Shown one piece after another: positions 2,984-60,349 of a DNA stretch of 64,000 nt (positions are counted from its first letter, which is position 1; every line of letters begins with the position of its first letter). Under the pieces are notes generated by a model. The model searched no databases. It worked only from the letters and a program-made list of their open reading frames with translations, and was not told the DNA's origin. Both the position numbers and the translations under genes were made by a program. The stretch is taken from positions 11,968 to 75,967 of the forward strand of contig MWCU01000054.1 of assembly GCA_002070205.1 (NCBI GenBank). The letters are read 5' to 3'. Source of the DNA: Firmicutes bacterium ADurb.Bin182. GTDB lineage: Bacteria; Bacillota; Clostridia; Christensenellales; CAG-138.

Positions 2984-3131
2984 GTGGGGGCAAGTCTGTG
3001 GTTTGCCCGTTCTATGAATTTCGCAGGTGATTACCGTAAGCGTTTTTAATCGTCCCATGTGCCGGATCGATCGCTCCCGTTCAAACACAAGGGGGCGGTT
3101 TATTAACAGCACGCCGCTGACGCACATAAAT

Positions 3132-3169
3132 GTTGATGACGTTCACCGAATCATGTATAATAGGCGAGC
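3132..3169 (+). promoter_or_regulatory. sigma70-like promoter for PNPOx copy 1
   Basis: TTGATG, 17-nt spacer, TATAAT. A diverged equivalent sits upstream of copy 2. Confidence 0.4.
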
Positions 3170-3234
3170 AACTTATTCCAATCAAACGCAAAGGAAACTT
3201 TTATAACCGCATATGCGGTGAAAGCGGGTATACG

Positions 3235-3717
3235 ATGTTCAGTGAAATGAGAAGGTCAAAGCAATTAATGTCAAATGGTGACGCGGAGGCCGTAATGGCA
3301 AGATGCACGAATGGAGTCCTTGCCTGCGCGGGCGACGACGGTTATCCGTATGCGGTTCCGTTGAGCTATGTATATCATAAAAATAAAATCTATTTTCATT
3401 CCGCAAAGGCAGGCCATAAAATCGATTCTATAAAAAGGGATCCCAAGGTTTCATTCGCGGTCGTCGACGAAGATACGATAGTCAGTGAGGAATACACGAC
3501 TTATTATCGCAGCGTCATCGCTTTCGGCAAAGCAAGGATAGCCGAAGGAGCCGAAAGGCTCGAAGCTTTTCGGGCTTTAGTCGAAAAATATTCGGGCGAC
3601 CAGCCCGAAGAATCCAAGCGTGAGAAAACGGAAGGGTGTTCGCAATCAGATATCGTCGCAATCGATATCGAGCACATGACCGGCAAGCAAGCTATCGAAT
3701 ACGCCGCGAAAAAATAA
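3235..3717 (+). CDS. pyridoxamine 5'-phosphate oxidase family (Nim/PNPOx-like FMN-binding) protein, copy 1
   Basis: 160 aa, the same length as copy 2. NGVLACAGDDGYPYAVPLSYVY...IYFHSAKAGHK is typical of the split-barrel PNPOx/Nim family. Confidence 0.8.
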   Translation: MFSEMRRSKQLMSNGDAEAVMARCTNGVLACAGDDGYPYAVPLSYVYHKNKIYFHSAKAGHKIDSIKRDPKVSFAVVDEDTIVSEEYTTYYRSVIAFGKARIAEGAERLEAFRALVEKYSGDQPEESKREKTEGCSQSDIVAIDIEHMTGKQAIEYAAKK

Positions 3718-7474: not shown

Positions 7475-7533
7475 AAGCTTTAGCGATATTAACCAACGGC
7501 TATGCCGGTGAGAATAAAGATCTTTAGATACAA

Positions 7534-7603
7534 GCAAAACCTCCTTTTGCTAAAATAAGTGCAGGTCTGCTAACCGCACAAAGGAAGCAAAAGGAGGTTT
7601 TGT
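7534..7603 (+). promoter_or_regulatory. stem-loop sequestering the tnpA ribosome-binding site
   Basis: GCAAAACCTCCTTTTGC (7534-7550) pairs with GCAAAAGGAGGTTTTG (7587-7602), which contains the AAGGAGG RBS. Confidence 0.7.
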
Positions 7604-7606
7604 CGA

Positions 7607-8077
7607 TTGAACGACATACAAAGCTTATCACATTCAAAATGGAGATGCCAATATCATATTGTGTTTGCACCAAAATATCGAAGGAAAGAGATCTATGGAA
7701 AAATCAAAGTGGATATAGGGAAGATATTGCGAAAACTGTGCGAGCAGAAAAATGTGGAGATTGTAGAAGCAAACGCGTGCCCTGACCATATCCACATGCT
7801 GGTATGTATACCGCCGAACTTAAGCGTAGCGCAGTTTATGGGATACCTAAAGGGAAAGAGCGCGCTTATGATATTCGACAGACATGCAAACCTGAAATAC
7901 AAGTACGGGAACAGACATTTCTGGTGCAGGGGGTATTATGTGGATACGGTAGGACGAAATAAAAAAGCGATAGAGGAGTATATAAAAAACCAATTACAGG
8001 AGGATATAGTAGCGGACCAAATATCGTTTAAAGAATACATCGACCCGTTTACGGGTAGCAAGAATTCCGAGGCGTAA
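7607..8077 (+). CDS. tnpA: IS200/IS605 family Y1 (HUH) transposase TnpA
   Basis: SHSKWRCQYHIVFAPKYRRKEIYG and PDHIHMLV (HUH) motifs, with the catalytic-Tyr region near YIKNQ. TTG start. Confidence 0.9.
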   Translation: MNDIQSLSHSKWRCQYHIVFAPKYRRKEIYGKIKVDIGKILRKLCEQKNVEIVEANACPDHIHMLVCIPPNLSVAQFMGYLKGKSALMIFDRHANLKYKYGNRHFWCRGYYVDTVGRNKKAIEEYIKNQLQEDIVADQISFKEYIDPFTGSKNSEA

Positions 8078-8350
8078 AAAAGGCCGCTTTAGCGGCGGCC
8101 TGTAGAAAAAATGCAGTTTGCAGATTATTCGATGCGTCTTGAGACGCAGCAAGCAGTATGCCCTTTTAGGGCTTGTGCATACCACGCGTTTAACGCGTGG
8201 TTTTGATTCAGGTGAAATAAAAAAACTCAAAATATTGCTCTTAGTCTGTTTTTCTGCTTGCAGCAACAACATTAAAGGAAGAGTCAATATCGGCATGAAC
8301 CACTAAGATGAACGGCTGATTCAATATTGGTAATTGCCGAAAGCCCGCAA

Positions 8351-9578
8351 TAAATGTTGATGATATCAGCCGAATCATATATAATAAGCCGCAGGCAACT
8401 TATTCCAATCAAACGCAAAGGAAACTTTTATGATCGCATATGCGGTTAAAGCGGGTACACGATGTTCAGAGAAATGAGAAGGCACAAACAATTACTGCCG
8501 ACCGATGAGGTGGCAGCGGTAATGGCAAGATGCACGAATGGAGTCCTTGCCTGCGCGGGCGACGACGGTTATCCGTATGCGGTTCCGTTGAGCTATGTAT
8601 ATCATAAAAATAAAATCTATTTTCATTCCGCAAAGGCAGGCCATAAAATCGATTCTATAAAAAGGGATCCCAAGGTTTCATTCGCGGTCGTCGACGAAGA
8701 TACGATAGTCAGTGAGGAATACACGACTTATTATCGCAGCGTCATCGCTTTCGGCAAAGCAAGGATAGCCGAAGGAGCCGAAAGGCTCGAAGCTTTTCGG
8801 GCTTTAGTCGAAAAATATTCGGGCGACCAGCCCGAAGAATCCAAGCGTGAGAAAACGGAAGGGTGTTCGCAATCAGATATCGTCGCAATCGATATCGAGC
8901 ACATGACCGGCAAGCAAGCTATCGAATACGCCGCGAAAAAATAAACGCAACCGGTCTATCGCCGGCTGCTGCGCAAATAAAGGGGAGTTAAAAAATGAAA
9001 GAAATAGAATCGAACAAGCACTCATGGAGCCAAATTTCCGAGGATCATTATTACGCATTCAAAGCGCGATTCAAAGAAGGAACTCAATTTTTCAATTATT
9101 ACATAAAACGGGAGCTCGGGGACATCACGGGCAAGGATATCATCCACCTTCAATGCAACACGGGCGCGGATACGATACTTTTAGCGCAGATGGGAGCTGA
9201 GCACGTAACGGGAGTGGACTTGGTTCCCGAGAATATTTATTACGCAAAAAAGCTTGCTTCCGATCTAAATGTGACAAACGTTGATTTTTTTGAATCCGAT
9301 ATCATGACTTTATCGCAAAAATACAATAAAAAGCACGATATGGTATTCACTTCGGAAGGTGCGCTCGTGTGGCTTCCGGACATGGAAGTCTGGGCGAAAA
9401 CTGTACGCTCCCTTTTAAACGATACCGGATATCTTTATGTTTTCGATTCTCATCCGTTTTTCTTAATGCTGGACGAAGAAAAACTCGATAAGCAGATTTA
9501 CGATATAAAGTATCCCTACTTTAAAAAAACGCCCGACTTCGATACGACTATAGGCGGCTACGCTTCGGAGCGCAAGGG
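8351..9578 (+). repeat. segmental duplication, copy 2
   Basis: See 3126-4351. Confidence 0.9.
8462..8944 (+). CDS. pyridoxamine 5'-phosphate oxidase family protein, copy 2
   Basis: Differs from copy 1 only in the first ~18 residues (MFREMRRHKQLLPTDEVAAV versus MFSEMRRSKQLMSNGDAEAV). Confidence 0.8.
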   Translation: MFREMRRHKQLLPTDEVAAVMARCTNGVLACAGDDGYPYAVPLSYVYHKNKIYFHSAKAGHKIDSIKRDPKVSFAVVDEDTIVSEEYTTYYRSVIAFGKARIAEGAERLEAFRALVEKYSGDQPEESKREKTEGCSQSDIVAIDIEHMTGKQAIEYAAKK

Positions 9579-18458: not shown

Positions 18459-21400
18459 GTTTTAATATTAATGATGTTATCGGGTTTTTTTCGCTTCTTA
18501 ACTATCACGAACACCGTTAAGGCAAAGCCGGTAAATATCGCGGCCCATCCCGCCGCGCTTTCACCGCTTCCTGTTTTAGGGGGAGGCAGAGTCGCCGGAC
18601 CCCATGCAGCAAACAGAATAATGTCGCTGTTACCCATTATGAGCGGGCTTTCAACTCGAGTGCCGTCACGAAGCTCCCAGCCCAAGAATATAAATCCCGG
18701 TTTTGATAGCCCCGCGCCCGAGGCGAGGGTTATGCTGTCGCCCGTGTAATAGCGGTTCATATCCACGGGAACGGCGCCTGTTCCGCCGTTCGTATGGTAG
18801 GATACGGTATAGCGGTTTACTGTAGGTTCCGATTGCTCAGATTTTTTAAAAACCGCTTTAAAACTCATATTGCTGTCCACCATAACGGTTATTGGGTTAA
18901 CCTCCGAATAAAATACCCAACTGCTATCTTCGCTTAGTGCCGCATAAGCCGCGCCGTTCAATAATGCATCCGGATCGTTTTCGTTGACGGGGACATCACT
19001 GCTGCCGGTATTCCCGGGGACTAACCAATGAAGGAACGTGTAGCCGCGCCCGGGTACAGCCGTGAGAGTTACGGATGTTTCTTCCTGATAAGTGCCGCCC
19101 TGAGGATCGAACGTAATTTTGCCGCCGCCCTCGGAATCATCTTCTAAAACCGCATCCGCAGTCACGGTAAATGTACCAAGTTCGGTAAAGATTGCGGTAT
19201 AGGTCAGATCTCCTTCGATCTTTTCCGGGAATTCGGCTGACCATCCGCTGAACTTGTAGTCTTCATCCGCTATGGGAGTCGGCGTTGTTACACTTTCATC
19301 CCATGCCGAACCGGTAAGAATACCGGAAAATTGTACTTGTGTTTCGCCGCCGGTAAAAGACCCGTGTTCGCCCGCTATAAATGTGACGGTGTGCCAATCG
19401 CTTTCTTTAATTTTAAAATATGCGGTGTAGACAGCCGTTTCATATTTACCGTCTTTCTGTCCGGGTATTATCGGATTTTCGGTTATATGCATGCTGTCAT
19501 CATCGCGTGTCCAATAGTCAAATTCATAGCCCGGCATAGCTTCTGCTTCTGAACCTTGCGCTTTGCCCGTTTCGGGGTTAAGTTCTTCGCTGTTCCGGCT
19601 GACCGAACCCATTTCATTGTCGGCGGATATATAGCTGATGGTTACTTTATCAAGCTCAGTAAAATACGCGGTATAGGCAAGATTTTCGCTCCAGCCTTCG
19701 TCTGGTCTGTTTACTGTTAATGTTTCCTCTGAGGTTACAGTGTCGGTCCCTTTTCTCCACTCCACAAAACGGTAACCCGGTTTCGGTATCGCTTTCGAGC
19801 TGACAGACGATACGCCTGAGTGCAAAACAGCGCTTGTTAAGTCCACCGTGCCCATGCTGTCATTGTCGGCTCTGAACGTGACAGTATATGTTTTTTCAAA
19901 GTTTGCGGCATATGTGACGGGTACCCAGACCGCTCCCGGTTTTGTCGGCACAAAGTTCGCATCCGTGCTGACTTCAACGCCATCACAAGTCCAGTTAACA
20001 AAGCGGTAGCCGTCGCTTGCCGTCGCGGTTGAGCCTTGCGCTATGCCTGTTGCAGGGGCAAGGCTCTCGCTGCTTCGGTCGATCGAACCGCCGACGCCCG
20101 CCGTGTATGTTATGGTAACATTGGCGTTTTCTATGAAATTTGCGATATAGGTGACTGGCATCCAGACCGCTCCCGGTTTTGTCGGCACAAACTTCGCATC
20201 CGTGCTGACTTCAACGCCATCACAAGTCCAGTTAACAAAGCTGTAGCCGACGTCTGCCGTTGCCTTTGAGCCTTGAGCTATGCCTGTAGCCGGGGCAAGG
20301 CTTTCGCTGCTCGGGTCGACCGAACCGCCGGCGCCCGCCGTATATGTTATGGTCACATCAGGTTTTTCTCTAAAGGTTGCGGTATATGTTTCAGTTTCGG
20401 TGATTGTTTCCGGCAAGACGGGGTCCCATTTATCGAACTCATATCCGGCATTTGCGACAGGTTCCGGCTCTGTGTCTATGGCGTCTTCCCATGCCGTTCC
20501 TGTGAGAATATCGGTAAATTCAGTTTTTGTTCCGGCGGCAAAATATCCGTGATCGCCTGCTTCAAACGTAACGGTATGCCATTGACCGGGATCCTTTATA
20601 AAGCTTACTTTATAAGTTATGCTCGCAGTTATCATGCTTTCGCTATTGCTGTCCGGCAATTCGGGACTCCAATTCGCCGCATAACCATTGTCCGGAACCG
20701 GCGTAGGTACTGTTATTCCGGCATCTTTCCATTTCGTACCGTTTAAAATCTCATACTGCGTTTTACCGTTAAGATGTCCGTTGCCGCCGTCTGTTTCGAA
20801 CAAGACTTTATGCCACATAGCGGGATCCTTTTCAAAATATGCGGTATAAGCCGCATCGCTCCAGCCGCCGGCGGGTTTAGAAACCGTCAGCACGGCGTTT
20901 GAGGAAACAAAATCATTGGAGTCTCGCCATTCAACAAAACGGTAACCCGTATTCGGGGTCGCAGCGGAACTGACCGAAACCGTATTCAGGTCCACGCTTG
21001 CACTTGCGGGGCTGACCGTACCCATGGCTGAATCGCCGGAATTAAAAGTAATCGTATGTGGGACTGGCTCGAAGTATGCGGTATAAGCCGCATTACTCCA
21101 GCCGCCGGCGGGCTTAGGAACCGTCAGCACGGCGTTTGAGGAAACAAAACCATTGGAGTCTCGCCATTCAACAAAACGGTAACCCGTATTCGGGGTCGCA
21201 GTGGAACTGACCGAAACCGTATTCAAGTCCACACTTGCACTTGCGGGGCTGACTGTACCCATGGATGAATCGCCGGAATTAAAAGCAATCGTATATGGTA
21301 CAGGCTCGAAGTATGCGGTATAAGTTACATCACTCCAGCCGCCTGCGGGTTGAAAAACCGTCAAAACGGCATTATTGGAAACGGGATTCTCGCCGTTTCT

Positions 21401-23029
21401 CCACTCAATAAATCGATAGCCCGCATTAGGAATCGCAGTGGAGCTTACAGATGATACGCCTGAATGCAGAACAGAGCTTGTTAAGTCCACCGTGCCCATG
21501 CTGTTATTGCCGGATTCAAACGTAGCGGTATAAGTTTTTTCAAAGTTTGCCCTAAATGTTAAGGGTATCCAGGGACCTCCTTCCGGTTTTGGCGGCACAA
21601 ATTTCGCATCTTGACCAACTTCAACGCCGTTATGGGTCCAATTAACAAAGCGGTAGCCGTCGTTCGCTGTCGCGGTTGAACCTTGCGCTATGCCCGTAAC
21701 CGGGGCAAGGCTTTCGCTGCTTCGATCGACCGAGCCGCCGACACCTGCTTCGTATGTGATGGTTACATCGGCATTTTCTCTGAAGTTTGCGGTATAGGTG
21801 ACAGGTACCCAGACCACTCCCGGCTTTGTCGGCACGAACTTTGCATCCGTGCTGACTTCAACGCCATCACAAGTCCAGTTAACAAAGCTGTAACCGATGT
21901 TCGCCGTTGCGGTTGAGCCTTGCGCCACGCCTATCTTAGGGTTAAGCCACTCGCTGCTTGGGTTTATCGAACCGCCTGCTGTTGCTTCGTAATTGATCGG
22001 TATATGCTTAAGTTCTTTGAATAGCGCTGTATAAGTTTTTGTTTCTGTTATCGTATCCGGCAATTCGGGATCCCATTTATCGAACTCGTAGCCGTCTGAC
22101 GGGTGTATGGACGGCATTGGTTTTATTGCCGTATTCCATGGTGTTCCGGTTATTATATTGGAAAAGATTTTTGTACCGAGTAATGACCCATGTTCGCCCG
22201 CCTGAAGCGTAACGGTAAAGCGTTCCTCGGGATTCTCTTTCCATCTTGCGGTATAGGTCTTATCTTGATTTATTATGCCTGTATCGCCGGGCAGCGCAGG
22301 ATCCCACCTGTCAAATAAATATCCGGGTTTGCGGTTCGTTTCTGGTACCGTTATGCCGGCGTTTCTCCACTCTGTGCCGCTGGTGACTCTGAACTCCGCT
22401 GTCCCCGAAAGCGTGCCCTTATTCGGATCTTCGGTCACGAAATTTATCGTGTACTTGGGGGAATAGTAAACTCTTAACTGTAAGTGGTCGAGCCATATAT
22501 CCTTACTTCCTCCCGTGCATTTCAGCCAGACGCGTAATGGATCATTTACCAGCCCGGGCGTCCACATGTCATAGCCCCACTTTTCGGTGGGACCGCCCAG
22601 TATTATTGTCGACCATGAAGTACTGCTGACAGCCCCTGTGTCTTTAAAATAAGTAAAATTGCCTACCGGCGCATGATTACTATCACGCAGAGATACTTCC
22701 AGCGAGCGGTATTCATTTTCATTTCCATTTTCGTTGCATCGAACCCTCAAGTGCACTTCAATCCCATCTATCCTGCAGTCTTCGGGCACAATGGGTGCGC
22801 TATGTTCTGTGAAAGTATATTCTACTATTGAATCTTCAATGTAAAACCTGGCATATTGTCCGTCAGATGAATAGGCATTTTCCGGGTCACTTACCAACTC
22901 AGGGTTGCTAAAGCGTATATAGGACTGTGCGCTTAACAGCCCGGTATCATCCGCCAGCGCAAGCGGCCTTGCCATGACGAATATGAAAGAAAAAATCAAG
23001 ACCAACGCGAGAATTCTTCTGCACGACAT
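18434..23029 (-). CDS. giant sortase-anchored adhesin with about 16 Listeria-Bacteroides-type (GYxFxxW) repeat domains
   Basis: Start ATG 23029 behind GGGGAGG. Signal peptide ...RPLALA. Repeated ~75-80 aa modules ending ..YTA.F. C-terminus has PPKTG, a hydrophobic helix and KKRKK. Confidence 0.85.
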   Translation of the reverse strand: MSCRRILALVLIFSFIFVMARPLALADDTGLLSAQSYIRFSNPELVSDPENAYSSDGQYARFYIEDSIVEYTFTEHSAPIVPEDCRIDGIEVHLRVRCNENGNENEYRSLEVSLRDSNHAPVGNFTYFKDTGAVSSTSWSTIILGGPTEKWGYDMWTPGLVNDPLRVWLKCTGGSKDIWLDHLQLRVYYSPKYTINFVTEDPNKGTLSGTAEFRVTSGTEWRNAGITVPETNRKPGYLFDRWDPALPGDTGIINQDKTYTARWKENPEERFTVTLQAGEHGSLLGTKIFSNIITGTPWNTAIKPMPSIHPSDGYEFDKWDPELPDTITETKTYTALFKELKHIPINYEATAGGSINPSSEWLNPKIGVAQGSTATANIGYSFVNWTCDGVEVSTDAKFVPTKPGVVWVPVTYTANFRENADVTITYEAGVGGSVDRSSESLAPVTGIAQGSTATANDGYRFVNWTHNGVEVGQDAKFVPPKPEGGPWIPLTFRANFEKTYTATFESGNNSMGTVDLTSSVLHSGVSSVSSTAIPNAGYRFIEWRNGENPVSNNAVLTVFQPAGGWSDVTYTAYFEPVPYTIAFNSGDSSMGTVSPASASVDLNTVSVSSTATPNTGYRFVEWRDSNGFVSSNAVLTVPKPAGGWSNAAYTAYFEPVPHTITFNSGDSAMGTVSPASASVDLNTVSVSSAATPNTGYRFVEWRDSNDFVSSNAVLTVSKPAGGWSDAAYTAYFEKDPAMWHKVLFETDGGNGHLNGKTQYEILNGTKWKDAGITVPTPVPDNGYAANWSPELPDSNSESMITASITYKVSFIKDPGQWHTVTFEAGDHGYFAAGTKTEFTDILTGTAWEDAIDTEPEPVANAGYEFDKWDPVLPETITETETYTATFREKPDVTITYTAGAGGSVDPSSESLAPATGIAQGSKATADVGYSFVNWTCDGVEVSTDAKFVPTKPGAVWMPVTYIANFIENANVTITYTAGVGGSIDRSSESLAPATGIAQGSTATASDGYRFVNWTCDGVEVSTDANFVPTKPGAVWVPVTYAANFEKTYTVTFRADNDSMGTVDLTSAVLHSGVSSVSSKAIPKPGYRFVEWRKGTDTVTSEETLTVNRPDEGWSENLAYTAYFTELDKVTISYISADNEMGSVSRNSEELNPETGKAQGSEAEAMPGYEFDYWTRDDDSMHITENPIIPGQKDGKYETAVYTAYFKIKESDWHTVTFIAGEHGSFTGGETQVQFSGILTGSAWDESVTTPTPIADEDYKFSGWSAEFPEKIEGDLTYTAIFTELGTFTVTADAVLEDDSEGGGKITFDPQGGTYQEETSVTLTAVPGRGYTFLHWLVPGNTGSSDVPVNENDPDALLNGAAYAALSEDSSWVFYSEVNPITVMVDSNMSFKAVFKKSEQSEPTVNRYTVSYHTNGGTGAVPVDMNRYYTGDSITLASGAGLSKPGFIFLGWELRDGTRVESPLIMGNSDIILFAAWGPATLPPPKTGSGESAAGWAAIFTGFALTVFVIVKKRKKPDNIINIKTCALPDCR
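20833..21545 (-). repeat. three tandem ~237-bp intragenic repeats (two nearly identical)
   Basis: 20833-21069 and 21070-21306 differ at only a few positions. 21307-21545 is more diverged. Confidence 0.85.
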
Positions 23030-24853: not shown

Positions 24854-24858
24854 AGACT

Positions 24859-25071
24859 GTCAAAAAACCCCTCCTAGGGATTATCAAGGGATCGGAACCC
24901 CTTGATTTACATTCCGGCTTCGGTGGCATGTACGTTGAAACGGATGAAATTCGTAAGAATTTCGTACATTGCACGCTTTGACGCTCGAAAATCTCTGATT
25001 TTAGTTCGTCAAAAATCTTGTTTTTGACTACGTGTAAATCTCGAAAAAGTCTGTACAGCCTTTTTCGACAC
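24859..25071 (+). repeat. structured dispersed element, copy A
   Basis: Shares ordered conserved boxes with 52337-52527 and with the reverse complement of 43589-43882. Confidence 0.85.
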
Positions 25072-25182
25072 GCTGCATAAACGCAAAGCGTTTATTCTCT
25101 ACTATTGCTCAACAATTGCTTTACGGCTGTGATTGCGCCATAGCGTAACTCGCAGTCTTTGCGGCTTTGCAGCTCCGGCGTA

Positions 25183-32373: not shown

Positions 32374-33396
32374 TTGAATATGGTTCCGGGTATCATCAAA
32401 ATATTCGCGGGAAGAACGGGCAGGGTTTTCGCCTCGAAAATGTGCGATTATCTCGGTGCAAAGCTGGGTGATTCCGAGACGATCAGGTTCTCCGAAGGGA
32501 ATATATTCGTAAAGGTAAATGAATCCATAAGGGATAAGGATGTATATATCGTTCAGCCCATAGGCCGCGAACCCAACGATGAATTTGTGGAACTTCTTTT
32601 CTGGATAGACGCATTCAAGCGCGCAAGCGCAAATTCCGTTACCGCCATCATCCCGTATTTCAGCTACGCAAAAGGAGATAAAAAGGACGAACCCCGCGTT
32701 TCCATACGCGCGAGAGTATGTGCCGAATGCATTGAGCTTGCGGGAGCGGACCGCATTTTGACAATGGACCTTCATAGTGCTCAGGTCCAGGGATTTTTCA
32801 AAAAACCGGTCGATCATCTGTACGCGAGTTCCATTCTGTGCGAATATGCAAGAAGAATAGGCATTGTGGATGAGGACCTCGTGGTCGTATCGCCGGACGC
32901 CGGATTCGCGAAACGCGCGAGGCAGTTTGCAAATGAGCTTGGCTGCCCGGTCGCTATCGGCGACAAAACGCGCTCCGATCATGACGAAAAAGCAAAAGTG
33001 CTTGAGATCATCGGCGACGTAAAAGGCAAGAATTGTCTTGTCGTCGACGACTTTACGATTTCAGGCGGAACTTTGGTCGATTTGGCTCTCGGGCTCAAGG
33101 ATAAGGGAGCGAAAAGGATATTTGCTTTCCTGTCGCATATAGTTTTAGGCGAAGCCGGAGTCAAAAAAATCGAAGAGAGTCCGATTGAGCTGCTGGTTTC
33201 CACCGATACCGTGCAATGCCCCGCCGTGAAAGGATCGGGCAAGATCAAAATCGTTTCCGCCGCTCCCATGTTTGCGGAAGCCGTCAGGATCATCCACGAC
33301 CGCGAACCCATGAGCAAGATGTTCACTGAGTCCGCGTCAAGGCGGATGTTCGATATGAGCTTCGCGTCGCAGCTGAGCATAAAGGATATTAGATAG
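32374..33396 (+). CDS. prs: ribose-phosphate pyrophosphokinase
   Basis: DLHSAQVQGFF and PRPP-loop VVDDFTISGGTL motifs. The start could be TTG 32374 or ATG 32380. Confidence 0.9.
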   Translation: MNMVPGIIKIFAGRTGRVFASKMCDYLGAKLGDSETIRFSEGNIFVKVNESIRDKDVYIVQPIGREPNDEFVELLFWIDAFKRASANSVTAIIPYFSYAKGDKKDEPRVSIRARVCAECIELAGADRILTMDLHSAQVQGFFKKPVDHLYASSILCEYARRIGIVDEDLVVVSPDAGFAKRARQFANELGCPVAIGDKTRSDHDEKAKVLEIIGDVKGKNCLVVDDFTISGGTLVDLALGLKDKGAKRIFAFLSHIVLGEAGVKKIEESPIELLVSTDTVQCPAVKGSGKIKIVSAAPMFAEAVRIIHDREPMSKMFTESASRRMFDMSFASQLSIKDIR

Positions 33397-33575
33397 TTTT
33401 CAGTATATAGTAACAAGTATTCAGTTGAATGAAAAAAATCTGCCTCCCGGCAGATTTTTTTTGAACTAATAACTTTATCAGTTTTCAGTATATAGTAATA
33501 AGTATTCAGTTTATGAAAAAAAATCTGCGGCAGCAGATTTTTCATTAAATTATAACTTTATCAGTTTTGAGTATT
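33397..33575 (+). repeat. two and a bit tandem ~84-bp modules (AT-rich box + AAATCTGCC..GGCAGATTT hairpin)
   Basis: Units 33397-33481 and 33482-33564. A partial third unit is cut off at 33575. Confidence 0.85.
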
Positions 33576-33702
33576 CGGACGAAATGGGCGGGCGATTCGT
33601 GAATCGCCCCTACATATAGGAATAACATGTCAGTACAATACAACATATTGTAGGGAACGACCCCCATGTCGTTCCGAATTTGTATTTCCGGGCAACCCTT
33701 TC
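33576..33702 (+). repeat. GGGCGATTC-hairpin element, copy 1
   Basis: Collinear with 60172-60349 except for one loop. Confidence 0.85.
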
Positions 33703-33741
33703 CTGAACTTATAACTCATTACTTATTATTGATAACTGTTC

Positions 33742-33766
33742 AAATCTGCCTCCCGGCAGATTTTTC
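33742..33766. terminator. AAATCTGCC-TCCC-GGCAGATTT hairpin (bidirectional terminator-like)
   Basis: Perfect 9-bp stem with A/T runs on both sides. It lies between the convergent prs and murC genes. Confidence 0.6.
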
Positions 33767-33799
33767 ATGAACTTATAACTGAATACTTATTACTGAGAA

Positions 33800-35164
33800 C
33801 TATAAAAGCTTTTTAGTCTGCTTATACACGTCTCCGCTGCCGAGGGTCAAAACGAGGTCGCCGGGTTTTGCGGTCGTTTTAAGATAATCGCGCACGTCCT
33901 CGAATGTCGGAGTATAGCGGGCGTCGATCCCCGCGTTTACAAATGCGTTTACCATGTCCCCGGCATGAACGGTGCCGTCGTCCTTCTCGCGCCCCGGATA
34001 AATGTCTACCGTCAGCACTTCATCCGCGCCGGCAAGGCATGAGGGGTCCTTTAAGAACAGAGTTTTTGCCCGCGTATAGGAATTGCATTGAAGGACCGCT
34101 ATCAGCCTGTTGCGCTTCACCCTATTCGCGGTCTCAATTATCGCACGGATCTCGCCGGGATGATGGGCAAAGTCGTGGTAAAGCATTGCGCCCTCGGGCG
34201 TTTTGCCGTAAAACTCAAACCTGCGCTTGGCAAGCCTGTAGCGAGATAATGCCTCGGCGGCCTTTTTTATGTCCGATTTCAGCTCGAGCGCGACCGCCAT
34301 CGCGGCGAGCGAATTCATAACGTTATGCGTTCCCGGAACGTGAAGCGTTATCCGCGCGAGTTTTTCACCCTTGTAAGTAAAGTCATAGGACGCTGAGCCC
34401 GAATCGTCGAATTCGATGTTCTGCGGGCGGCAGTCTCCGCCGTGCATTCCGTAAGTCAGCTTACGTCCCTTGAATTCCCCGAGCAGCTTTATTACGTGCT
34501 CGTCGTCCGTGCAGCCTATAAACAAACCGTCTTCCGGAAGCTTATTGACGAATTTTCTAAACGCGTCCGTGATGGCGTCGATGTCCTTGAAATAGTCGAG
34601 ATGATCGTCATCGATGTTATGAATAAGAGCTATGGTCGGCCGCAGCGTTAAAAAACTTTCCACATATTCGCAGGCTTCGGTAATAAAGAGGTCTTTTGAG
34701 CCGACGCGCGTCCCTCCGCCTAAAAACTCTTCGTATCCGCCTACGTGTACAGTGGCATCCGGTCCTCCCGTCAAACTGATAAGAGCGAGCATGGATGTTA
34801 TCGTGGTTTTGCCGTGGCAGCCGGCAATGCCGACAACGCTTTTGTATCCTTCGGATAATTGTCCGAGAGCGACGGAACGCTCAAGCTCCGGGATGCCGGC
34901 TTCGCGCGCGGCGCGGCGCTCCGGGTTATCCGGCTTGATTGCCGCCGAATAGATTATTAAATCGCTGCTGCCTATGTTTTCAGGCCTGTGTCCGATAAAT
35001 ACGGGAATGCCGAGCTCAATGAGCCTGTCGGTAAAAGGGGAATCGGTAACGTCTGAACCCTGGACCTTCAAGCCCCGATCGGATAGCAGCTGGGCAAGCC
35101 CGTTCATGGAGCACCCCCCGATTCCGATCAGGTGAACTTGTTTATGATTATTGATATGCGTCAT
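33800..35164 (-). CDS. murC: UDP-N-acetylmuramate--L-alanine ligase
   Basis: GIGGCSMNGLA and GCHGKTTITSM motifs, with a Mur ligase C-terminal domain. Confidence 0.95.
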   Translation of the reverse strand: MTHINNHKQVHLIGIGGCSMNGLAQLLSDRGLKVQGSDVTDSPFTDRLIELGIPVFIGHRPENIGSSDLIIYSAAIKPDNPERRAAREAGIPELERSVALGQLSEGYKSVVGIAGCHGKTTITSMLALISLTGGPDATVHVGGYEEFLGGGTRVGSKDLFITEACEYVESFLTLRPTIALIHNIDDDHLDYFKDIDAITDAFRKFVNKLPEDGLFIGCTDDEHVIKLLGEFKGRKLTYGMHGGDCRPQNIEFDDSGSASYDFTYKGEKLARITLHVPGTHNVMNSLAAMAVALELKSDIKKAAEALSRYRLAKRRFEFYGKTPEGAMLYHDFAHHPGEIRAIIETANRVKRNRLIAVLQCNSYTRAKTLFLKDPSCLAGADEVLTVDIYPGREKDDGTVHAGDMVNAFVNAGIDARYTPTFEDVRDYLKTTAKPGDLVLTLGSGDVYKQTKKLL

Positions 35165-52331: not shown

Positions 52332-52336
52332 AGATC

Positions 52337-52527
52337 GTCAAAAAACCCTCATGGGGATTATCAAGGGGTCGAAATCCCTTGATTTCCATTCCGGCTTCGG
52401 CGGCATGTACGTCGAAACGGATGAAATCCGTATGGATTTCGTACTTTGCATGCTTTGCCGCCGGAAATCTCTGATTTTAGGCAAAGCATGAAAATCTCGA
52501 AAAAGTCTGCAATGACTTTTTCGACAC
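52337..52527 (+). repeat. structured dispersed element, copy B
   Basis: See copies A and C. Confidence 0.85.
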
Positions 52528-52532
52528 TCTCG

Positions 52533-52554
52533 GGCAATGCAAACCTGCATTGCC
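52533..52554 (+). repeat. second copy of the GGCAATGCA..TGCATTGCC hairpin
   Basis: Differs from 52309-52330 by one loop base. Confidence 0.85.
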
Positions 52555-57895: not shown

Positions 57896-58164
57896 GCCGC
57901 GCACCCGTCCTTTGACAAAGCGCCTCCGGGCGGTATGCAGGCAGGCGGCTCCTTCCGGGCGTCCCCGCGGCACACCGCCTTTTCCGCTTAATGCTGCTTC
58001 CGTCAGGACCTGACATGCTTCACGGACGGCGATTGCACGGGACCCGGATATCAACGCTCCTTGCCTGCGCCGGACCCCACAGGCACCCGCCGGGGGACGG
58101 GACTTCAGCCCTGCTGTAGCGGATTGCAGGTACAGGGCACCGCTGTCTCCCCGCTTAGCGCGGC
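57896..58164 (-). ncRNA. ffs: signal recognition particle RNA, long (Alu-domain-containing) Firmicutes type
   Basis: Minus strand contains the domain IV core GTCAGGTCCTGACGGAAGCAGCATTAAG and an Alu-like 5' part GGTGCCCTGTACCTGCAATCCGCTACAGCAGGGCTGAA. The termini GCCGCGC/GCGCGGC pair. Confidence 0.85.
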
Positions 58165-60171: not shown

Positions 60172-60349
60172 TCCGGAAATGGGCGGGCGATTCGTGAATC
60201 GCCCCTACATATAGGTAAACATGTCAGCGAAACACAATATATTGTAGGGAACGATCTGGGGCGTCTTGTTTTCTCCCTATAAACATTAATCAAAGAAAAA
60301 AGACGCTCAAAGTGTCGTTCCGAATTTGTATTTCCGGACAAACCCTTTC
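60172..60349 (+). repeat. GGGCGATTC-hairpin element, copy 2 (with 60-nt insertion in one loop)
   Basis: See 33576-33702. Has a 9-bp terminal inverted repeat TCCGGAAAT / ATTTCCGGA. Confidence 0.85.

What the first reader, a model, noticed from the sequence alone, without database searches (positions are those of the whole stretch)
33576..33702. Second unassigned element: GGGCGATTC-hairpin repeat with short terminal inverted repeats and an insertion-tolerant loop
Copies at 33576-33702 and 60172-60349 share GAAATGGGCGGGCGATTCGTGAATCGCCCCTACATATAGG..AACATGTCAG...ATTGTAGGGAACGA[loop]GTCGTTCCGAATTTGTATTTCCGG.CAA.CCCTTTC. Both contain a perfect 9-bp stem, GGGCGATTC-GTG-GAATCGCCC, and a GGAACGA/TCGTTCC stem. 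In copy 1 that stem's loop is about 6 nt. In copy 2 it holds about 60 nt carrying its own GCGTCTT/AAGACGC hairpin. Copy 2 ends in TCCGGAAAT...ATTTCCGGA. Both copies lie in spacers between convergent genes (prs/murC and ABC-2 permease/flavodoxin). Copy 1 interrupts a third unit of the 84-bp tandem module, which suggests it inserted there.
Basis: seen in the sequence. Interest (0 to 1): 0.6.

Follow-up and report, generated by a model that had tools for sequence, protein, structure and literature searches.

The report
Paired REP-type hairpin repeat in Clostridia
The two copies are real, but each is built from two hairpins of a long-known bacterial repeat class (GTAG-tagged REP sequences), so this is a rare, lineage-specific member of a known kind and not a new type of element.

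Summary
The two copies exist as described, at 33581-33702 and 60176-60349 on the + strand. Each lies between convergent genes, and no third copy is in the window. The genome is the MAG 'Firmicutes bacterium ADurb.Bin182'.

Each copy holds two short G+C-rich palindromes, each tagged by GTAG. Hairpin 1 reads GTAG-GGGCGATT-CACG-AATCGCCC on the minus strand. Hairpin 2 reads GTAG-GGAACGAC-loop-GTCGTTCC on the plus strand. The tags face inward across a 36-nt spacer. In the nomenclature of Di Nocera et al. 2013 this is a tail-to-tail heterodimer of GTAG-tagged REPs. Variable-length, self-complementary loops, like the 59-nt one in copy 2, are described for that class.

Hairpins with the same 9-nt arms flank RAYT-like transposase genes in Chloroflexota. 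The exact hairpins also occur singly in viral contigs.

The whole ~122-nt composite was found only in this species. Two relatives with 79-82% MurC identity have a short prs-murC spacer without it.

Rfam gave no match. The 'terminal inverted repeat' is 9 bp in copy 2 but only 5 bp in copy 1. No RAYT gene lies in the ~74 kb available for this species. Copy number, mobility and RNA function remain untested.

Verdict: new member of a known kind, low to moderate interest.

The parts
33581..33702 (+). Copy 1 of the composite element (122 nt shared with copy 2)
   Evidence: Alignment A1; block coordinates
33590..33613 (-). Copy 1, REP unit 1: GTAG + GGGCGATT-CACG-AATCGCCC, read on the minus strand
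33614..33649 (.). Copy 1, spacer between the two inward-facing GTAG tags. It holds 7 of the substitutions/indels between the copies
33650..33675 (+). Copy 1, REP unit 2: GTAG + GGAACGAC-CCCCAT-GTCGTTCC, followed by the T-rich GAATTTGTATTT. This was the only terminator-like site the scan reported in 33300-33900
33676..33702 (+). Copy 1, conserved 3' tail GAATTTGTATTTCCGGGCAACCCTTTC. ATTTC can pair with GAAAT at 33581-33585
60176..60349 (+). Copy 2 of the composite element (174 nt). The flanking TCCG at 60172-60175 completes the 9-bp inverted repeat seen only in this copy
60185..60208 (-). Copy 2, REP unit 1, identical to that of copy 1
60244..60321 (+). Copy 2, REP unit 2: GTAG + GGAACGA ... 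GTCGTTCC with an expanded loop
60255..60313 (+). 59 nt in place of the 6-nt loop. They form an imperfect hairpin (GGGGCGTCTT...AAGACGCTC) that extends hairpin 2 coaxially
60322..60349 (+). Copy 2, conserved 3' tail GAATTTGTATTTCCGGACAAACCCTTTC

Best explanation
Each copy is a tail-to-tail heterodimer of two GTAG-tagged repetitive extragenic palindromes (REP-type hairpins). The dimer is embedded in about 35 nt of conserved flanking sequence.

Shown: the anatomy; membership of both hairpins in the GTAG-tagged class by its published structural definition; association of same-arm hairpins with RAYT-like genes in Chloroflexota; extragenic position between convergent genes; absence from the orthologous spacer in two relatives.

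Inferred:
(i) The unit spread, or was assembled, within this Clostridia lineage as non-autonomous single-strand-hairpin DNA. A REP-associated Y1 (HUH) transposase encoded elsewhere in the genome, cutting next to GTAG, would process it.
(ii) Where it sits it is transcribed as the 3' end of the converging mRNAs. Its stable hairpins then act as a 3' barrier or weak terminator. In both copies hairpin 2 with its T-rich tail faces the upstream + strand gene.
(iii) The 59-nt loop in copy 2 is a loop expansion or a nested palindrome of the kind described for REP families.
For: Anatomy:
- Both units are GTAG + 0 nt + a perfect 8-bp G+C-rich stem + a 4-6-nt loop. This matches the operational REP definition of Quentin et al. 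2018: GTAG or GTGG 0-2 nt 5' of a fully paired stem of 7-20 nt with a 2-5-nt loop, or long hairpins with an extra inner stem. It also matches Di Nocera et al. 2013: stems 5-13 bp, loops 2-20 bp, inner loop regions self-complementary up to 27 bp.
- In the window such perfect GTAG hairpins number 5 against about 0.4 expected. The three G+C-rich ones all lie in the two copies, and copy 2's expanded hairpin 2 falls outside the scan's loop limit.
- The tags face inward across 36 nt. That is a 'TT dimer' of unlike partners, a 'heterodimer', within the usual 20-100 bp spacing. TT dimers are reported to have variable spacers. Here 7 of the differences fall in the 34 spacer positions compared, against 2-4 in 81 nt elsewhere.
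- REPs are reported to lie mainly between convergent or co-directional genes. Both copies lie between convergent genes.

Related hairpins elsewhere:
- Hairpins with the same 9-nt arms (GGGCGATTC/GAATCGCCC-CTAC, 3-nt loop) are abundant in Chloroflexota, Verrucomicrobiota and other MAGs. They sit alongside arm variants that keep the pairing (ACAC, GCC, CCC) and form HH, TT and HT dimers.
- In L061, two plus two inverted copies flank an ORF whose only NCBIfam hit is REP_Tyr_transpos (65.6 bits, E = 4e-18). L070 and L071 are similar.
- Group 1 RAYTs are reported in Clostridia.
- The exact hairpin 1 occurs in 15 IMG/VR loci, and hairpin 2-type units (GTAGGGAACGA..TCGTTCC) in 15. L159 differs from the window's hairpin 2 by one loop base.

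Lineage-specific presence:
- Relatives with 82% and 79% MurC identity have prs-murC spacers of 114 and 73 nt. Each holds one plain terminator hairpin and no element.

Real sequence:
- Both copies are identical in a second MAG of the species (L121, L140). The part of copy 2 covered by two Logan contigs is also identical.
Against: - Copy number is low as far as can be seen: 2 in about 74 kb of this species. No other GTAG hairpins are enriched in the window under relaxed criteria. REPs are usually defined by dozens to hundreds of copies.
- No RAYT gene lies in the available sequence. The only Y1 transposase (7607-8077) is IS200-type (153.7 bits for IS200; 31.6 against a cutoff of 80 for the RAYT model). 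Its ends do not resemble the element.
- The RAYT-like ORFs in Chloroflexota score below NCBIfam's curated cutoff (65 against 80 bits).
- About 35 nt of conserved sequence outside the two hairpins is not explained by the REP model.
- The composite was found nowhere else: JGI metagenomes with 2 patterns, IMG/VR, PLSDB plasmids, GenBank phages, and an exhaustive protein search in one reading frame. Mobility therefore rests on two insertion sites and on absence in two relatives.
- Transcription and any RNA role are untested.
Confidence: 0.6

Rival explanations
1. A structured non-coding RNA: a four-way junction made of a closing stem GGAAAT/ATTTCC, hairpin 1, the CCCTACA/TGTAGGG stem and a variable-length hairpin 2. 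It would act as an sRNA or a 3'-UTR element, and the GTAG/CTAC motifs would only be the two halves of one stem.
For: - Copy 2 folds into exactly this four-way junction as both MFE and centroid (-58.4 kcal/mol, z = -4.6, 0 of 200 shuffles fold as well).
- All differences between the copies fall in predicted loops, in the spacer or in the 3' tail, and none in hairpin 1, hairpin 2 or the tag stem.
- The size variation sits in a terminal loop, as is common in RNA families.
- The eighth pair of hairpin 2 in copy 2 is T-G, which pairs only as RNA on the + strand.
Against: - No Rfam family matches, even at E <= 10.
- Copy 1 does not adopt this fold as its MFE, and its stability is unremarkable (z = -1.7 on the + strand, -2.6 on the - strand).
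- The minus strand of copy 2 folds equally well (z = -4.0), as expected of palindromic DNA.
- Two copies offer no covariation.
- No homologue exists in relatives' orthologous spacers or in any searched collection.
- Both hairpins occur alone, in other arrangements, in unrelated genomes and phages. This argues for modules and against one RNA.
- No promoter-like site lies upstream.
Confidence: 0.12
2. [quoted passage not shown]
For: - Copy 2 has a 9-bp inverted repeat, TCCGGAAAT/ATTTCCGGA.
- It is a dispersed repeat in two unrelated spacers and is absent from relatives.
- Its size, 120-180 nt, is typical of MITEs.
Against: - In copy 1 the inverted repeat shrinks to 5 bp.
- Sequence conservation continues 11-12 nt past the right repeat.
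- No target-site duplication flanks either copy.
- No parent IS with matching ends is in the window. The IS200 copy shows no similarity.
Confidence: 0.1
3. Not mobile at all: two locally useful terminator or 3'-stabiliser cassettes that became similar by duplication, gene conversion or convergence on common hairpin motifs.
For: - Hairpin 2 plus GAATTTGTATTT was the only terminator-like hit the scan reported in 33300-33900.
- The copy 2 spacer has no other terminator-like site.
- Hairpin 2-type units in viral contigs are sometimes followed by runs of T (L151, L154).
Against: - 40 and 25 nt of perfect identity, including unpaired segments, are far more than function alone would demand.
- By reading, the copy 1 spacer holds three A-run/hairpin/T-run sites on either side of the element (stems near 33432-33461, 33519-33542 and 33742-33765). 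The scan did not report them. An extra terminator is therefore not needed there.
- Hairpin 1 has no T-run on either strand.
Confidence: 0.1

Closest known systems
GTAG-tagged REP families and their dimers (Di Nocera, De Gregorio & Rocco 2013, PMC3733652; REP/BIME of Enterobacteria and Pseudomonas)
   Same: - A GTAG tetranucleotide directly abuts a 20-26-nt G+C-rich palindrome.
- Stem length (8 bp) and loop lengths are within the published ranges.
- Two unlike units lie in opposite orientation, 36 nt apart, with tags inside (a TT heterodimer).
- The spacer is variable.
- The loop can be long and self-complementary.
- The location is between convergent genes.
- From memory: Pseudomonas REPs begin GTAGGAGCGA..., very like GTAGGGGCGA... 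here.
   Different: - The host is an uncultured member of the Clostridia. 'Firmicutes' does not occur in the text of the 2013 survey.
- Only two dimers were seen in about 74 kb, and no singletons.
- About 35 nt of conserved sequence lies outside the dimer.
- The whole composite, and not the single hairpin, is the repeated unit here.
REPIN-RAYT systems (Bertels & Rainey 2011, PMC3116915; Nunvar et al. 2010, PMC2817692)
   Same: - Two inverted REP units plus a spacer behave as one unit of roughly 100 nt.
- Same-arm hairpins flank RAYT-like genes in Chloroflexota (L061).
   Different: - A REPIN's two arms are near-identical and pair with each other. Here the two hairpins have different stems and fold separately.
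- No RAYT is known for this genome.
- No population of copies is available to show replication.
IS200/IS605-derived palindrome-associated elements (PATEs and similar hairpin-ended MITEs)
   Same: - Hairpin-containing ends, no target-site duplication, no strict TIR.
- An IS200 copy is present in the same window (7607-8077).
   Different: No sequence similarity to the ends of that IS200. The GTAG tags point to the RAYT branch of Y1 enzymes and not to IS200 TnpA.

Membership tests
GTAG-tagged REP (repetitive extragenic palindrome) | GTAG or GTGG tetranucleotide 0-2 nt 5' of the palindrome | tested here: met
   Both units in both copies have GTAG at offset 0. The definition is from PMC6006769 and PMC3733652.
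GTAG-tagged REP (repetitive extragenic palindrome) | Short G+C-rich stem-loop: fully paired stem of about 6-13 bp (7-20 in Quentin et al.) and a short loop, or a longer loop with a self-complementary inner part | tested here: met
   Stems are 8 bp and perfect. Loops are 4 nt and 6 nt. Copy 2 has a 59-nt self-complementary loop. That is longer than the 27 bp cited but of the same kind.
GTAG-tagged REP (repetitive extragenic palindrome) | Extragenic location, preferentially downstream of genes (convergent or co-directional neighbours) | tested here: met
   Both copies lie between convergent genes.
GTAG-tagged REP (repetitive extragenic palindrome) | Repetition: from 20-100 up to thousands of units per genome | tested here: inconclusive
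   There are 4 units (2 dimers) in about 74 kb of this species. The rest of the genome could not be searched. An exhaustive protein search in one reading frame found no further ORF across a copy, which hints at a low copy number.
GTAG-tagged REP (repetitive extragenic palindrome) | Association with a REP-associated tyrosine transposase (RAYT) gene flanked by the same REPs | not testable with these tools
   No RAYT lies in the window or in the added loci of this species. For same-arm hairpins in Chloroflexota the association is seen, although the ORFs score below NCBIfam's cutoff.
REPIN | Two near-identical REPs in inverted orientation that pair into one long hairpin | tested here: not met
   The two stems differ (GGGCGATT and GGAACGAC). 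Only the tag regions CCCTACA/TGTAGGG pair with each other.
TIR-type MITE | Conserved terminal inverted repeats at the element boundaries, flanked by a target-site duplication | tested here: not met
   The inverted repeat is 9 bp in copy 2 and 5 bp in copy 1. Conservation extends beyond it, and there is no duplication.
Any Rfam RNA family | Covariance-model match at or near the gathering score | tested here: not met
   Only the SRP RNA passes in the window. Nothing credible overlaps either copy at E <= 10.

The most novel reading that the evidence does not exclude
The 122-nt unit is a distinct composite mobile element of an uncultured Clostridia lineage. On this reading it was assembled from two different GTAG-tagged hairpin modules that also travel on phage genomes, since the exact hairpin 1 and near-exact hairpin 2 occur in IMG/VR contigs of 32-65% G+C. 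It would be mobilised in trans by a Clostridial RAYT. That would make REP modules horizontally shared between phages and hosts, in contrast to the vertically inherited single-lineage replicators described for Proteobacteria. A structured-RNA role for the four-way junction is also not excluded.
Probability: 0.2. Interest if true: 0.45.

Novelty: new member of a known kind. Interest (0 to 1): 0.25.

Why it matters
It takes the finding off the list of unexplained elements. The hairpins are REP-type, a class known since the 1980s, and the 'insertion-tolerant loop' and paired arrangement are documented properties of that class.

The modest added value is threefold:
- GTAG-tagged REP dimers occur in an anaerobic-digester Clostridia MAG, a group barely covered in REP surveys.
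- Here the repeated unit is a heterodimer with conserved flanks, not a single hairpin.
- The same hairpin modules turn up in viral contigs. If followed up, this bears on how REP sequences spread.

Tried and rejected
1. The genome-contig scan used a 3-nt loop between the 9-nt arms. The window's hairpin has only 2 nt there, so the scan could not retrieve this genome or exact matches. It did reveal the same-arm REP class.
2. Two metagenome scans found nothing: the 3' block GTCGTTCCGAATTTGTATTTCC, and the gapped tag-to-tag pattern.
3. IMG/VR with the 3' block gave 0 hits. PLSDB plasmids and GenBank phages by blastn gave no match.
4. A concatenated six-frame peptide query against the protein collection returned nothing. 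It missed even the 40-aa ORF P0001, which is in the collection, so the trick failed technically and is not evidence of absence.
5. An exhaustive phmmer search with one full-length frame found only P0001.
6. The ABC-2 permease has no close orthologue (the next hit is 50% identical). Presence or absence at site 2 could therefore not be tested.
7. Extending the species' sequence by about 10 kb (L140, L143-L146) gave no further copy.
8. A link to the IS200 copy at 7607-8077 was considered and rejected. There is no end similarity, and the transposase is IS200-type, not RAYT.
9. Hammerhead or other small ribozymes, attC sites and a small protein gene were considered from the sequence and dropped. 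Core motifs are absent, and the open frames across the element lack starts and conservation.
10. A relaxed scan for imperfect GTAG hairpins in the window showed no enrichment over random (9 against 4-13).

Full report
**Observation**

The shared unit runs from GAAATGGGC (33581; 60176) to CCCTTTC (33702; 60349), on the + strand in both. Two diagnostic sub-blocks each occur exactly twice in the 64-kb window with up to three mismatches allowed, against none in 100 shuffles. Blast of both copies, and of the copy 2 insertion, against the whole window finds no third or partial copy.

Small corrections:
- Hairpin 1 is 20 nt (GGGCGATT-CGTG-AATCGCCC). It is an 8-bp stem, not 9 bp with a 3-nt loop.
- Hairpin 2 is GGAACGAC-CCCCAT-GTCGTTCC in copy 1. 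In copy 2 the loop is replaced by 59 nt (60255-60313) that form their own imperfect hairpin.
- The 9-bp 'terminal inverted repeat' of copy 2 is only 5 bp in copy 1, and conservation continues 11-12 nt beyond it.
- There is no target-site duplication.

**Context**

Pfam and the gene calls confirm convergent neighbours: prs(+)/murC(-) for copy 1, and ABC-2 permease(+)/flavodoxin(-) for copy 2. MurC and the permease are 100% identical to proteins of 'Firmicutes bacterium ADurb.Bin182', an anaerobic-digester MAG. A second MAG of the same species (GCA_022706985.1) carries both copies unchanged. Two Logan contigs carry the flavodoxin-proximal part of copy 2. The sequence is therefore not an assembly artefact.

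Copy 1 sits in a 403-nt spacer built of two 84/85-nt direct modules on its left and two 64-nt units on its right. Inverted repeats link these to the left modules. By reading, both left modules and the right-hand array carry an A-run/hairpin/T-run terminator-like stem, although the consensus scan did not report them. The head (12 nt) and a tail-like 13 nt of a third module flank copy 1, but the module's central ~54 nt are missing.

**What the element is made of**

On the minus strand hairpin 1 is preceded directly by GTAG. On the plus strand hairpin 2 is preceded directly by GTAG. A scan for GTAG followed at once by a perfect stem of at least 7 bp finds five sites in the window against about 0.4 expected. 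The three G+C-rich ones are in the two copies, and copy 2's hairpin 2 escapes only because of its long loop.

This is the published definition of GTAG-tagged REPs:
- GTAG or GTGG lies 0-2 nt 5' of a fully paired stem, with a short loop or an extra inner stem (PMC6006769).
- Stems are 5-13 bp and loops 2-20 bp, with self-complementary inner loops in some families.
- Units are commonly paired 20-100 bp apart as head-head, tail-tail or head-tail dimers, and partners are often unlike ('heterodimers').
- TT dimers have variable spacers.
- The preferred location is between convergent or co-directional genes (PMC3733652).

The element is thus a TT heterodimer with a 36-nt spacer. The differences between the copies cluster in that spacer: 7 in the 34 positions compared, against 2-4 in 81 nt elsewhere.

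**Relatives of the modules**

A scan of one genome per species returned at least 120 loci, mostly Chloroflexota but also Verrucomicrobiota, Bacteroidota, Nitrospirota and others. The pattern used the same 9-nt arms but, by my slip, a 3-nt loop. Only the roughly 25-30-nt hairpin is shared with the window. Next to those hairpins lie variants with compensating arm changes (GGGCGACAC.., GGGCGAGCC.., GGGCGACCC..), arranged as HH, TT and HT dimers: 368 units in 0.9 Mb.

In L061 an ORF is flanked by two plus two inverted copies of GTAG-GGGCGATTC-nnn-GAATCGCCC. Its only NCBIfam hit is REP-associated tyrosine transposase (65.6 bits, E = 4e-18, below the curated cutoff of 80). L070 and L071 are similar. 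That is the canonical REP-RAYT arrangement, so the hairpin 1 type is a substrate-like REP in at least one phylum.

The exact hairpin 1 with its CGTG loop occurs in 15 IMG/VR loci, often 10-20 nt upstream of an ORF start. Hairpin 2-type units (GTAGGGAACGA..TCGTTCC) occur in 15 more. One of them (L159) differs from the window's hairpin 2 by a single loop base. Several sit beside GGGGCGA-type units.

**The composite as a whole**

The composite was found nowhere else:
- Two JGI metagenome scans.
- IMG/VR.
- Plasmids and GenBank phages.
- An exhaustive protein search with a full-length reading frame.

About 10 kb of additional sequence from the same species held no further copy. The two nearest relatives recovered (MurC 82% and 79% identical, same prs-murC synteny) have spacers of 114 and 73 nt. 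Each holds one ordinary hairpin terminator and neither the element nor the 84-nt modules. Site 2 could not be compared because the ABC-2 operon has no close orthologue.

**Mechanism**

The best-supported reading is a REP-type, non-autonomous hairpin element.

*Shown:* the anatomy, class membership by structural definition, RAYT association of same-arm hairpins elsewhere, extragenic convergent location, and lineage-specific presence.

*Inferred:* mobilisation by a RAYT encoded elsewhere in this genome. RAYT Group 1 is reported in Clostridia (PMC5581495). A role as a 3' hairpin barrier or weak terminator is also inferred. Hairpin 2 with its GAATTTGTATTT tail is the only terminator-like site the scan reported near copy 1, and no terminator-like site at all was reported in the copy 2 spacer.

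*Against:* low visible copy number, no RAYT in about 74 kb (the window's Y1 transposase at 7607-8077 is IS200-type), and about 35 nt of conserved non-hairpin flank that the model does not explain.

**Rivals**

- Structured RNA. This is suggested by the clean four-way junction of copy 2 (z = -4.6). Copy 1 does not share that MFE (z = -1.7). The opposite strand folds as well. Rfam is silent. No homologues exist to test covariation.
- TIR-type MITE. It fails on non-conserved TIRs and the absence of a target duplication.
- Pure terminator convergence. It cannot explain 40- and 25-nt perfect blocks that include unpaired bases.

**Verdict**

The interpretation as an unassigned, MITE-like novelty is only partly supported. 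It is a new, apparently low-copy member of the GTAG-tagged REP kind in an uncultured Clostridia lineage. Interest is low to moderate. The most useful follow-ups are a whole-assembly census and a RAYT search.

Noticed in passing
window 33395-33562 and 33703-33805: The prs-murC spacer holds two 84/85-nt direct modules on the left of copy 1 and two 64-nt units on the right that inverted repeats link to the left modules. By reading, both left modules and the right-hand array carry an A-run/hairpin/T-run terminator-like stem (AAAAATCTGCC-TCCC-GGCAGATTTTT). The orthologous spacers of two relatives (L137, L138) are 114 and 73 nt with a single unrelated terminator, so the module array is lineage-specific too.
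   Followed up: partly
window 24855-25090 and 52332-52545: A second dispersed intergenic repeat of about 230 nt, about 85% identical, with a 20-nt indel and several internal hairpins (for example GGGATTATCAAGGG...CCCTTGAT). The whole-window Rfam scan at gathering threshold reported nothing here. No sensitive (E-value) scan was run on these two stretches.
   Followed up: partly
window 7480-8220 (TnpA ORF 7607-8077, +): An IS200-type insertion sequence: Y1 transposase (NCBIfam transpos_IS200 153.7 bits, Pfam Y1_Tnp) preceded by a long hairpin that covers the ribosome-binding site (GCAAAACCTCCTTTTGC...GCAAAAGGAGGTTTTG). Several hairpins follow it downstream. Its ends are unrelated to the element under study.
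   Followed up: yes
window 3126-3717 (and onward) vs 8350-8944 (and onward): A direct duplication 5.2 kb apart (83-92% identity at the DNA level) covers a 160-195-aa ORF and the following 219/266-aa ORF. It brackets a 708-aa repeat-rich surface-type protein and the IS200 copy. Contigs of other assemblies of this species (L143, L144) end near the first copy.
   Followed up: no
L061 7246-7976 (Aggregatilineales MAG OY759986.1); also L070 2768-3331 and L071 4910-5770: RAYT-like ORFs (motifs VMPNHxHG and WQRNYY(D/E)H) lie beside GTAG-GGGCGATTC-nnn-GAATCGCCC units. In L061 the ORF is flanked by two plus two inverted units. In L071 and L101 the ORFs themselves contain REP-derived peptide stretches such as VGATRRVA.
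   Followed up: partly
L136 2660-6575; L125 364-1763 (IMG/VR contigs): Viral contigs carry GTAG-tagged hairpins. L136 has three exact copies of the window's hairpin 1 at about 1.94-kb spacing, each just upstream of an ORF start. L125 has six different GTAG hairpins within 1.4 kb on one strand. I did not find REP-type hairpins in phage genomes described in the papers I read.
   Followed up: partly
L141 4882 and L142 4059 (= window about 60270): Two Logan contigs from different sequencing runs end at exactly the same base inside the 59-nt loop insertion of copy 2 (after ...TTTATAGGGAGAAA). This suggests a branch in the assembly graph there, from a repeat or a polymorphism such as A-run length.
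   Followed up: no
window 19749-22258: Tandem 237-nt (79-codon) repeats in several blocks (19933-20469, 20832-21542, 21580-22116). They are probably a repeat-domain surface protein.
   Followed up: no
window 57897-58163 (-): Bacterial large SRP RNA (Rfam RF01854, 193 bits). This was the only Rfam match at gathering threshold and fits a Firmicutes origin.
   Followed up: yes
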